A DNA stretch of 64,000 bases from IMG/VR virus record IMGVR_UViG_3300037780_000034, positions 96,001-160,000 of that record; one strand, written 5' to 3'. Of the stretch, positions 40,812 to 48,777 are shown in pieces (positions within the stretch are counted from its first letter, which is position 1; each line of letters opens with the position of its first letter). A program made the position numbers and the translations under genes. Below the pieces are notes generated by a model. That model was not told the origin of the DNA. It made no database searches and was given only the letters and a program-made list of their open reading frames with translations. Source of the DNA: a virus (taxonomy: Duplodnaviria > Caudoviricetes).

Positions 40812-40933
40812 TGCATCGTAGCTCAGAGGTAGAGCAGGTGACTGTGGATGCTAAAGGTCATAGGGTCAGTTCGATTCTGACAGCATCAACCGTAATCACT
40901 TGGTCGCAGGTTCGATCCCTGCCGATGCAGCCA
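40812..40933 (+). tRNA. tRNA-Asn(GTT) interrupted in the anticodon loop by a 47-nt tRNA-minihelix insert (40846-40892)
   Basis: Removing the insert gives GGTGA-CTGTTAA-TCACT; G73 and CCA present. Confidence 0.75.
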
Positions 40934-41516: not shown

Positions 41517-41645
41517 AGGATCATTTCCGCAATATTTTACTTTGCATCAGAAGCACGTGTTTGCAGGTTCAAGTCCTGCCTCCCCAACCATAATAATTGA
41601 CGGGGAGTAGGCAAATGGTAAAGCCGCGTTAAGTAATATGATCCT
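41517..41645 (+). tRNA. Circularly permuted tRNA (anticodon CAG) in WCMGCAA scaffold
   Basis: 3' part 41544-41590 (ends CCA) precedes 5' part 41601-41629; rejoined stem CGTGC/GCACG. Confidence 0.7.
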
Positions 41646-41756
41646 GTTATATACTACAGGCTAACTTTTGGGGGTTAGCTTGGTGTTACAGAAGTATAGG
41701 AAATCATTCGGAACCAAATAATGCCTATACCATTTTACGGTTCCAGCAAAACACAG

Positions 41757-41785
41757 TTGACAACCGATAGAGAATCAGCTACATT
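41757..41785 (+). promoter_or_regulatory. sigma70-type promoter with GAATC
   Basis: TTGACA-17-TACATT; GAATC at 41772. Confidence 0.7.
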
Positions 41786-41827
41786 ACAGACACTGAAAAT
41801 GAAACCACTAACAAAAGGTGAAACACT

Positions 41828-42543: not shown

Positions 42544-42617
42544 GGCTCTATTGCATTGTGGAATGCAGCGGCTTCTAACCCCGTTTCAAGCAGGTTCGAC
42601 TCCTGTTAGGGCCACCA
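42544..42617 (+). tRNA. Arg-type tRNA body with ambiguous anticodon (CTA in canonical register, TCT in shifted register)
   Basis: GCGGC-TTCTAAC-CCCGT; A20; CCA. Confidence 0.7.
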
Positions 42618-43337: not shown

Positions 43338-43394
43338 AGGATGATTACCGCAAAATTAATAAACTTTTTTTTGGTAAAAGCAGAACATCATCCT
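43338..43394 (+). ncRNA. WCMGCAA-scaffold RNA carrying a bare Gln(TTG)-type anticodon stem-loop
   Basis: AGGATGA/TCATCCT; CTTTT-TTTTGGT-AAAAG. Confidence 0.6.
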
Positions 43395-43805: not shown

Positions 43806-43863
43806 AGGATGACTTCCGCAAAATTATGCATTTGACCGTTAATCAAAAAAGCAAAATCATCCT
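43806..43863 (+). ncRNA. WCMGCAA-scaffold RNA carrying a bare Asn(GTT) anticodon stem-loop
   Basis: AGGATGA/TCATCCT; TTTGA-CCGTTAA-TCAAA. Confidence 0.6.
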
Positions 43864-44538: not shown

Positions 44539-44661
44539 AGGATCATTACCGCAATTTTATTTGCATTTCCAGCCGTAGATGCAGGTGCAATTCCTGCTCA
44601 CCCTACCAATATAAATTATGGGGTGATCGTCTAATAGTAGGACAACGTATAATATGATCCT
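44539..44661 (+). tRNA. Circularly permuted tRNA-Glu(TTC) in WCMGCAA scaffold
   Basis: 3' part 44563-44608, 5' part 44620-44647; rejoined stem ACGGC/GCCGT; Glu-type D arm. Confidence 0.72.
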
Positions 44662-46663: not shown

Positions 46664-46773
46664 TGGAACATTACCGCAACTATAACATAAACAATGGGTT
46701 ACAGGTTCAAATCCTGTCTTTTACAGTTTGTAAAAGTAGTTCAATGGTAGAACAATTGTCAAAAAATGTTCCA
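46664..46773 (+). tRNA. Degenerate circularly permuted tRNA (anticodon CAT) in WCMGCAA scaffold
   Basis: 3' part ~46684-46725, 5-nt linker, 5' part 46730-46759; GTAAAAG/CTTTTAC acceptor; no encoded CCA. Confidence 0.6.
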
Positions 46774-48701: not shown

Positions 48702-48777
48702 TGGTAGAAGGGAAATTGGCGACCGACCGCACTTTGAATGCGTGTTATTGTAAGTTCGAATCTTACTCTACCAACCA
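48702..48777 (+). tRNA. tRNA-Gln(TTG)
   Basis: CGCA-CTTTGAA-TGCG; U1-A72. Confidence 0.85.

What the first reader, a model, noticed from the sequence alone, without database searches (positions are those of the whole stretch)
41517..41645. Permuted tRNA with CAG anticodon on a short-arm, C1:A72 body
Seen: the 3' part (41544-41590, CCA), a 10-nt linker and the 5' part (41601-41629) rejoin to 76 nt with a perfect CGTGC-ATCAGAA-GCACG arm. CAG reads Leu, but there is no Leu-type long variable arm, and the acceptor has a C1:A72 mismatch. Established: that mismatch marks initiator tRNA and disfavours EF-Tu binding. Inference: identity elements conflict, so it may be mischarged, act as an alternative initiator at CUG, or serve as a decoy.
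Basis: partly seen in the sequence, partly recalled or inferred. Interest (0 to 1): 0.75.

Follow-up and report, generated by a model that had tools for sequence, protein, structure and literature searches.

The report
Phage Y-RNA-like permuted tRNA mimic
A back-to-front tRNA look-alike in a giant pond phage is real and strongly conserved, but its "anticodon" and its C1:A72 mismatch change between relatives and it sits on a docking stem shared with sister RNAs that accompany a Ro60-like protein, so it is most likely a tRNA mimic of the Y-RNA type, not a mischarged or initiator tRNA.

Summary
At 41517-41645 (+), an 8-bp terminal stem encloses a circularly permuted tRNA. Rejoined, it is called tRNA-Leu(CAG) by ARAGORN.

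It is one of nine "handle" RNAs (terminal stem plus WCMGCAA bulge) in the tRNA cluster of a 318-kb phage. Fourteen relatives show strong covariation in every helix.

- The close ortholog (96% identical) reads UAG.
- A more distant relative reads UGG, and a near-copy of that one has a 6-nt loop.
- Pair 1:72 is C·A here, U·G in the ortholog and C:G in three relatives. It is a lineage-specific lapse, not an initiator mark.

Family members with a sealed acceptor end, or with only an anticodon hairpin, keep the same handle.

The phage encodes a Pfam DUF2828/DUF7788 protein whose model matches only Ro60 structures. In relatives the RNA lies 141 nt from that gene.

Best reading: a YrlA-like Y RNA / tRNA mimic, probably opened by RNase P to a CCA end. 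A cut-and-rejoin route to a working tRNA is not excluded, because no RNA data exist.

This scan had already noted the same RNA family in this genome and in others.

The parts
41517..41524 (+). Handle helix H1, 5' strand (AGGATCAT)
   Evidence: Pairs with 41638-41645. In 14 relatives 100% of cells pair, and 4 of 7 pairs change on both sides.
41526..41532 (+). Conserved bulge motif TCCGCAA (family consensus WCMGCAA)
   Evidence: Found directly after the terminal stem in nine elements of the cluster and in relatives from other phages.
41537..41542 (+). Handle helix H2, 5' strand (TTACTT)
   Evidence: Pairs with 41631-41636. This is the weakest helix: 75% of cells pair and 3 of 6 pairs covary.
41544..41554 (+). 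Lower anticodon stem (GC/GC) with 7-nt loop AUCAGAA (CAG)
   Evidence: The loop keeps U33 and A38 in 11 of 11 relatives that have a loop, but the triplet varies.
41555..41557 (+). Upper anticodon stem, 3' strand (ACG, positions 41-43)
   Evidence: Pairs with 41627-41629. All 3 pairs change on both sides in the family.
41558..41562 (+). Short variable loop (TGTTT)
   Evidence: It is identical in L039, L042 and L043.
41563..41579 (+). T arm (GCAGG-TTCAAGT-CCTGC)
   Evidence: Partial Rfam tRNA and YrlA matches. 100% of cells pair in the family.
41580..41586 (+). Acceptor stem, 3' strand (CTCCCCA; A72 = 41586)
   Evidence: All 7 pairs change on both sides in the family.
41587..41590 (+). Discriminator A73 and encoded CCA
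   Evidence: NCCA is present in all 9 open-ended members among the 14.
41591..41600 (+). 10-nt A/U-rich linker (TAATAATTGA) closing the acceptor stem
   Evidence: Identical in the L039 ortholog. Other open members mostly have A/U-rich linkers of 10-11 nt; some are as short as 3 nt.
41601..41607 (+). Acceptor stem, 5' strand (CGGGGAG; C1 = 41601)
   Evidence: Position 1 is U in L039 and C, paired with G72, in L042, L043 and L058.
41610..41625 (+). D arm (GGC-AAATGGTAAA-GCC)
   Evidence: It is identical in L039, L042 and L043.
41627..41629 (+). Upper anticodon stem, 5' strand (CGT, positions 27-29)
   Evidence: In a contig of run X3, similarity to this body ends exactly at 41629 and at 41543.
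41631..41636 (+). Handle helix H2, 3' strand (AAGTAA)
41638..41645 (+). Handle helix H1, 3' strand (ATGATCCT)
44539..44661 (+). Sister handle RNA: permuted tRNA-Glu-like (UUC), same H1 letters, open end with ACCA
   Evidence: R1 72.5 bits, R2 107.6 bits. Its relatives read UCC and GUC.
46664..46773 (+). Sister handle RNA: permuted tRNA-like body with the acceptor stem sealed by a short loop, no CCA
   Evidence: Rfam YrlA 31.5 bits over the full model. R2 84.2 bits.
43338..43394 (+). Sister handle RNA: handle plus one anticodon-type hairpin only (57 nt)
43806..43863 (+). Sister handle RNA: handle plus one anticodon-type hairpin only (58 nt)

Best explanation
The element is a small non-coding RNA of the Y-RNA type, a YrlA-like tRNA mimic, and not a decoding tRNA. 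It is probably transcribed with the neighbouring tRNAs. Its two ends pair into a two-helix handle (H1, a WCMGCAA bulge, H2). I infer that this handle is the docking site of the phage's Ro60-like ring protein (Pfam DUF2828/DUF7788, encoded about 51 kb upstream). The handle emerges from the anticodon stem between positions 29 and 30 of a complete tRNA-shaped body. The body has a 7-bp acceptor stem, an encoded ACCA and a conserved 10-nt linker. I therefore infer that RNase P and 3' trimming open the acceptor end, as shown for Mycobacterium smegmatis YrlA, leaving a two-piece, CCA-ended tRNA look-alike still held on the handle. The particle would then present a tRNA body and an anticodon-type loop to tRNA-binding factors. 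The likeliest of these are host tRNA-cutting defence nucleases or the phage's own tRNA-repair enzymes. Shown here: the structure, its conservation, the shared handle, the variable anticodon, the Ro60-like fold and the genomic linkage. Inferred: protein binding, RNase P opening, and the bait or tether role.
For: (1) The order T arm, acceptor hairpin, D arm inside a terminal stem is the YrlA layout. The best non-tRNA Rfam match is YrlA, at 21.4 bits and E 0.017 on the 191-nt stretch, with every arm aligned. A sister element scores 31.5 bits over the whole model.
(2) Nine elements in the cluster share a stem plus WCMGCAA. Their cargo ranges from a bare hairpin to a whole permuted tRNA.
(3) Covariation supports all eight helices.
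(4) The anticodon is not held. The E1 lineage reads CAG, UAG, UGG and a 6-nt loop; the sister lineage reads UUC, UCC, GUC and GUC.
(5) Sealed members that can never be charged keep the anticodon arm. Two closely similar RNAs are one open (L035) and one sealed (L031).
(6) An AlphaFold model of the phage's DUF2828/DUF7788 protein (pLDDT 76.6) has Ro60 structures as its 13 best PDB matches, E 2e-8 to 4e-5, over the full length.
(7) Three records found through the RNA pattern alone all encode this protein. In L042 the E1-type RNA starts 141 nt after its stop codon on the same strand. In L118, L058, L122 and L115 such RNAs abut the gene.
(8) Precedents exist. Phage Ro60 proteins bind phage Y-like RNAs that have a 5'-3' stem and a bulge motif (PMC12135203). 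M. smegmatis YrlA is cut by RNase P and receives CCA in vivo (PMC4201824).
Against: The YrlA score is far below Rfam's gathering score (21.4 against 69), and the bulge motif differs (WCMGCAA against GNCGAAN0-1G). Pfam TROVE does not match anything in the genome. Binding of the handle to the Ro60-like protein is inferred only from linkage; in this genome the gene lies about 51 kb away. Published YrlA RNAs have no anticodon arm, whereas this RNA keeps a canonical 7-nt loop with U33 and A38, an exact NCCA and a conserved linker, all of which a real tRNA would also need. Only about 10 of 80 Ro60-like loci had a full permuted-tRNA RNA within 10 kb, though that model does not score the simpler handle RNAs. 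No RNA data exist.
Confidence: 0.6

Rival explanations
1. It is a true permuted tRNA gene. A protein cuts the handle off at positions 29/30. A phage RNA ligase seals the nick in the anticodon stem, giving a circle. RNase P and 3' trimming then remove the linker to release a working tRNA.
For: The rejoined halves give a complete cloverleaf with an encoded ACCA. The loop keeps U33 and A38 across the family. Similarity to a related body on a different handle ends exactly at 41543 and 41629, the proposed junction. The phage encodes Rnl1-like and Rnl2-like RNA ligases and a Thg1-like enzyme, the first and last within 2-6 kb of the Ro60-like gene. The same cluster holds a tRNA-Asn with an insert of about 47-50 nt that also needs an unknown removal route.
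Against: The anticodon changes amino-acid meaning on an unchanged body (Leu, Leu, Pro, and a 6-nt loop). Sealed-acceptor and hairpin-only members carry the same handle and cannot become tRNAs. There is no tRNA-splicing endonuclease and no RtcB in the record, and the junction is not a bulge-helix-bulge motif. CUG is rare in the phage, and the sister Glu-type element duplicates a canonical tRNA-Glu(UUC).
Confidence: 0.17
2. It is a two-piece tRNA that keeps the handle, is aminoacylated, and acts in translation as a mis-reading elongator or as an alternative initiator at CUG.
For: It has a 7-bp acceptor stem, A73 and CCA. The 1:72 pair is weak in both E1 (C.A) and its ortholog (U.G).
Against: 1:72 is a normal C:G pair in L042, L043 and L058. 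There is no CAU anticodon and no run of three G:C pairs in the anticodon stem. From established ribosome structures, a helix projecting from anticodon-stem pairs 29-30 would clash with the 30S A and P sites; this is an inference. The anticodon is variable.
Confidence: 0.05
3. It is a decaying relic of a rearranged tRNA gene with no function.
For: It has a C1:A72 mismatch, a 3-bp D stem and a drifting anticodon.
Against: It is 96% identical to its ortholog, against 55-75% in the flanks and 58% in the neighbouring protein. Covariation is found in every helix. The family recurs in many phages.
Confidence: 0.03

Closest known systems
YrlA, the bacterial and phage Y RNA-like tRNA mimic bound by Ro60/Rsr (Rfam RF02553; Chen et al. 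2014, PMC4201824)
   Same: A terminal 5'-3' stem with a conserved bulge motif. A T arm, acceptor-type hairpin and D arm in permuted order. Travels with a Ro60-type protein and occurs in phages. The M. smegmatis member has a 7-bp acceptor stem, is cut by RNase P and gains CCA.
   Different: It scores only 21.4 bits against a gathering score of 69. The bulge motif is WCMGCAA, not GNCGAAN0-1G. The partner protein is a DUF2828/DUF7788 Ro60 look-alike that Pfam TROVE does not detect. It carries a full anticodon arm and an encoded ACCA. There are nine paralogous handle RNAs with different cargo in one genome.
Thermus phage phiLo Ro60 with Yrl1 and Yrl2 (PMC12135203; PDB 9L5Y, 9KOP)
   Same: A phage-encoded Ro60 ring with a vWA domain that binds phage-encoded stem-bulge-stem RNAs encoded beside the gene. 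These are the best structural matches to this phage's protein.
   Different: The phiLo RNAs carry a CGAA motif and are not described as whole permuted tRNAs. Sequence identity between the proteins is about 14-15%.
Circularly permuted tRNA genes of Cyanidioschyzon merolae, some green algae and Thermofilum (from my own knowledge of the literature)
   Same: The 3' half precedes the 5' half with a short linker, and the flanks pair with each other.
   Different: Those use a bulge-helix-bulge junction, a splicing endonuclease and a circular intermediate, and they keep their anticodons. Here there is no such motif or enzyme, the anticodon drifts, and non-tRNA cargos share the same flanks.
Two-piece (permuted) tmRNA
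   Same: A permuted gene order with CCA followed by a linker and the 5' acceptor strand. It gives a weak Rfam match of 11.7 bits.
   Different: There is no reading frame for a tag peptide and there are no pseudoknots. ARAGORN finds no tmRNA.

Membership tests
YrlA (Rfam RF02553) | Score at or above the curated gathering score (69 bits) | tested here: not met
   21.4 bits, covering model positions 23-89 only. The sister element reaches 31.5 bits.
YrlA (Rfam RF02553) | T arm, acceptor-like hairpin and D arm in that order, enclosed by a stem | tested here: met
   The cmscan alignment places every arm. Covariation is present in 14 relatives.
YrlA (Rfam RF02553) | Ro60-binding stem with the GNCGAAN0-1G motif on the 5' strand (PMC4201824) | tested here: not met
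   A stem with a bulge is present, but the conserved motif is WCMGCAA.
YrlA (Rfam RF02553) | Encoded with a Ro60/TROVE protein | tested here: inconclusive
   Pfam TROVE finds nothing. A DUF2828/DUF7788 protein has a Ro60 fold. Linkage is seen. In this genome the gene is about 51 kb away.
YrlA (Rfam RF02553) | Physical binding to Ro60 | not testable with these tools
   Needs co-immunoprecipitation or a gel-shift assay.
Permuted tRNA gene (Cyanidioschyzon type) | The rejoined halves form a full cloverleaf | tested here: met
   ARAGORN calls tRNA-Leu(CAG), 76 nt.
Permuted tRNA gene (Cyanidioschyzon type) | Splicing endonuclease and a bulge-helix-bulge motif at the junction | tested here: not met
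   There is no PF01974 match in the record. The junction is a three-way helix junction.
Permuted tRNA gene (Cyanidioschyzon type) | Anticodon conserved among orthologs | tested here: not met
   CAG, UAG, UGG and a 6-nt loop.
Permuted tRNA gene (Cyanidioschyzon type) | Circular intermediate or junction reads | not testable with these tools
   No RNA run holds the stretch.
Bacterial initiator tRNA | Conserved 1:72 mismatch, CAU anticodon, and three G:C pairs at 29-31:39-41 | tested here: not met
   1:72 is C.A, U.G or C:G in relatives. The anticodon is CAG. The stem is C-G, G-C, U-A, G-C, C-G.
tRNA-Leu | Type II body with a long variable arm | tested here: not met
   The variable loop is 5 nt. 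C1:G72, A73 and UGG in L042 look Pro-type instead.

The most novel reading that the evidence does not exclude
The open-ended handle RNAs are a route to working tRNAs in a bacterial virus. Either the handle is cut out and the anticodon stem is sealed by the phage's Rnl-type ligases, which would be the first permuted tRNA genes outside eukaryotes and archaea. Or the two-piece, CCA-ended molecule is aminoacylated while the Ro60-like protein holds it. The fast-changing anticodon would then be a way to reprogramme decoding or to escape host anticodon nucleases.
Probability: 0.15. Interest if true: 0.9.

Novelty: new variant of a known kind. Interest (0 to 1): 0.6.

Why it matters
Y RNAs that mimic tRNA are known, but their job is not. 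Here one phage carries nine of them. They mount anything from a bare anticodon hairpin to a whole CCA-ended tRNA on one docking stem. They go with a Ro60 look-alike that the Pfam TROVE model does not detect, and that gene lies within about 6 kb of Rnl1-like and Thg1-like genes. The anticodon-type loop keeps its shape while its triplet changes quickly. That pattern points to an arms race over tRNA cutting or repair. It offers a tractable system for asking what the tRNA-like part of a Y RNA is for. For annotation, these elements should not be counted as tRNA genes when judging a phage's decoding capacity.

Tried and rejected
- BLAST of the region against 50,697 phage records found only ordinary tRNA similarity.
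- The neighbouring 150-aa protein gave one viral relative, and that one lacks the element upstream.
- A body pattern in viral contigs returned only a Leu-type relative on the same kind of handle, with no anticodon loop and no CCA.
- A handle pattern gave 13 hits, of which 10 were chance matches in coding DNA.
- The contig of the closest Ro60-like protein (86% identity) could not be searched beyond 10 kb.
- No RNA holder was listed for the stretch. Contigs of DNA runs showed no joints.
- The minimum-free-energy fold recovers H1, the T arm and the acceptor hairpin but not the D and anticodon arms (z = -2.2), so I relied on covariation instead.
- Similarity of the rejoined body to canonical tRNA-Pro or tRNA-Leu genes is unremarkable, at 48-58 of about 77 positions. 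Its parent tRNA cannot be named from overall similarity.
- I found no promoter-like site directly upstream.
- A literature search found no paper linking DUF2828 to Ro60 and no report of a permuted tRNA in a phage.

Full report
**What is there.** The window lies at 96001-160000 of a 317,722-bp virus record from a pond metagenome, estimated 85% complete. Positions 40.8-54.5 kb of the window hold a one-strand cluster of 22-24 tRNA genes separated by small ORFs. Most of these genes encode their CCA end. The finding lies between tRNA-Gly(UCC) and a 150-aa ORF.

- The 3' part is 41544-41590. It holds the lower anticodon stem and loop, a 5-nt variable loop, the T arm, the 3' acceptor strand, A73 and CCA.
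- The linker is 41591-41600.
- The 5' part is 41601-41629. It holds the 5' acceptor strand, a D arm with a 3-bp stem, and positions 27-29.

Rejoined, ARAGORN calls the 76 nt tRNA-Leu(CAG), with C1 opposite A72. The outer bounds of the finding, 41517-41524 and 41638-41645, are a perfect 8-bp inverted repeat.

**It belongs to a family inside this genome.** A simple scan for a stem followed by [AT]C[AC]GCAA finds nine such elements, all between 41517 and 51418 of the window. They share the terminal helix H1, the bulge motif and a short A/U helix H2. What they carry differs:
- two are 57-58-nt RNAs with a single anticodon-type hairpin;
- one is a permuted Glu-like tRNA with the same H1 letters as this element;
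- one has a permuted tRNA-like body whose acceptor stem is sealed by a short loop;
- others carry only a T-arm-like hairpin.

A covariance model built from this element alone finds the two permuted sisters at 72.5 and 46.4 bits. A second model finds no further copies elsewhere in the genome.

**Relatives elsewhere.**
- A metagenome contig, found through the neighbouring protein (58% identical), carries an ortholog at L039:3693-3821 that is 124/129 identical. It lies 8 nt after a canonical tRNA-Pro(UGG). The upstream spacer is 55% identical and the downstream spacer 75%.
- The five differences are two bases in the handle's unpaired part, C34 to U (CAG to UAG), A72 to G, and C1 to U.
- A contig in a DNA run matches the body from 41543 to 41629 and no further, and sits on a different handle.
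- Searching for that handle gave L042 and L043. They have the same D arm, anticodon stem and variable loop, compensated changes in the T stem, and an acceptor stem with C1:G72, A73 and CCA.
- In L042 the loop is AUUGGAA (UGG); in L043 it is the 6-nt AUGGAA. ARAGORN calls the rejoined L042 RNA tRNA-Pro(UGG).
- A more distant relative, L058:12154-12288, has the same 5' acceptor strand as this element, paired C1:G72.

So C1·A72 and U1·G72 are each one transition away from a C:G pair. The triplet walks UGG, UAG, CAG by single transitions on an otherwise fixed body.

The sister Glu-like lineage behaves the same way: UUC, UCC, GUC, GUC. Two closely similar RNAs from other phages are one open-ended with ACCA (UCG) and one sealed (UGA).

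Across the 11 members that have a loop, U33 and A38 never change, and 10 loops are 7 nt long. The loop's shape is selected; its triplet is not.

**Structure support.** On 14 members, 93.9% of cells form standard pairs. The figure is 68.3% in shuffles (0 of 500 shuffles reach the observed value) and at most 46.6% when partners are slid by one to three columns. Twenty-five of 34 pairs change on both sides, including all seven acceptor pairs and all three upper anticodon-stem pairs. The alignment was fitted to the model, which favours the structure. H2 is the weakest helix.

**The protein partner.** Pfam TROVE finds nothing in the genome.
- It encodes 475 aa at genome 85209-86636 and matches Pfam DUF2828 and DUF7788.
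- Plain sequence search finds no relative in the PDB.
- An AlphaFold model built on 26 homologs has mean pLDDT 76.6. Its 13 best PDB matches are all Ro60 proteins: Thermus phage phiLo, Xenopus, human and Deinococcus. E-values run from 2e-8 to 4e-5 and the alignments cover the full length. Hits from rank 14 on (E 5e-3 and weaker) are partial, many to vWA domains alone.
- The family is very large: 7,972 of the 8,000 candidates scored had E <= 1e-5.

Linkage to the RNAs:
- Three records that I found through the RNA pattern alone all encode this protein.
- In L042 the E1-type RNA begins 141 nt after the protein's stop codon, on the same strand. Another handle RNA and a tRNA array follow it.
- Among 80 loci centred on the protein, about ten have full permuted-tRNA handle RNAs within 10 kb. 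All are on the gene's strand and several abut it.

In this genome an Rnl1-like gene lies about 1.5 kb upstream of the Ro60-like gene and a Thg1-like gene about 6 kb downstream. An Rnl2-like gene lies elsewhere. There is no RtcB and no tRNA-splicing endonuclease.

**Interpretation.** The layout is that of YrlA, the tRNA-mimicking Y RNA of bacteria and phages. Rfam's YrlA model is the best non-tRNA match and aligns every arm, but it scores far below threshold. Published work shows two relevant things:
- phage Ro60 proteins bind phage RNAs that have a 5'-3' stem around a bulge motif (PMC12135203);
- M. smegmatis YrlA, which has a 7-bp acceptor stem, is cut by RNase P and gains CCA in vivo (PMC4201824).

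I therefore read this element as a Y-RNA-type mimic whose handle docks the Ro60-like protein. Its acceptor end is probably opened to a CCA terminus.

What the tRNA-shaped part does is inferred only. Three observations fit a bait or tether for proteins that read tRNA anticodon arms, such as host anticodon nucleases or the phage's repair enzymes:
- hairpin-only and sealed members keep anticodon-type loops;
- the triplets turn over quickly;
- tRNA-repair genes lie near the Ro60-like gene.

Comparative work on jumbo phages has already proposed Ro/TROVE proteins, together with a tRNA-like partner RNA, as an RNA-repair platform (PMC7824862).

An initiator role needs a conserved 1:72 mismatch, a CAU anticodon and three G:C pairs in the anticodon stem. 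None holds. A Leu identity conflict presumes a Leu tRNA, but the body looks Pro-type and the triplet drifts. CUG makes up 2.6 per 1000 codons in the phage. A helix projecting from anticodon-stem positions 29/30 should not fit the ribosome; that is an inference from known ribosome structures.

**What remains open.** A cut-and-rejoin route to a real tRNA cannot be excluded. The exact NCCA, the conserved linker, the canonical loop shape, the sharp similarity boundary at the junction, and the ligases are all compatible with it. No RNA data are available to decide.

**Earlier notes.** Earlier notes of this scan describe the same handle family in this genome and in other genomes. I used them as leads and re-tested the points I rely on.

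Noticed in passing
window 40812-40930 (+): A tRNA (GUU, Asn) with an insert of about 47-50 nt in the anticodon loop. Rfam scores it 54.5 bits as a tRNA with a 50-nt insertion, and ARAGORN misses it. The insert contains a T-arm-like hairpin and the words ACAGCAT, which resemble the handle motif.
   Followed up: partly
window 42544-42617 (+): A tRNA with anticodon CUA (amber suppressor type; ARAGORN labels it 'Pyl'). L118, a relative's locus, has one too.
   Followed up: no
window 41680-41790 (+): The spacer downstream of the element is well conserved in the L039 ortholog. It contains a GGAACC...GGTTCC hairpin followed by AGCAAAA, then a promoter-like site (TTGACA, 17 nt, TACATT) at 41757-41785 ahead of the 150-aa ORF.
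   Followed up: partly
window 41643-41690 (+): Two small hairpins lie right after the handle's 3' strand. One (stem CTAAC/GTTAG) keeps its pairing in L039 with a different loop. It may be a processing or terminator signal.
   Followed up: no
genome G000:C1:24332-24407 (-), outside the window: A 76-nt, short-variable-arm tRNA in normal gene order with a UAA (Leu) anticodon, next to a tRNA-Met. So Leu-type anticodons on type I bodies also occur in ordinary gene order in this phage.
   Followed up: no
window 48702-48774 (+): A tRNA-like match found by Rfam only (36.5 bits) and not called by ARAGORN. It lies between tRNA-Ile and tRNA-Lys.
   Followed up: no
genome G000:C1:83269-92669, outside the window: An RNA-repair neighbourhood around the Ro60-like gene: Rnl1-like at 83269-83679 and Thg1-like at 92265-92669. 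The 86%-identical relative L038 also has a DNA ligase, an HD domain protein and Acb1 there.
   Followed up: partly
L017:1501-1643 (same sequence in L022 and L023): A handle RNA whose permuted body is Leu-like, with a long variable arm capped by a GCAA loop. The handle replaces the anticodon loop, and the 3' end reads ACAA instead of ACCA. It lies about 6 kb from a Ro60-like gene.
   Followed up: partly
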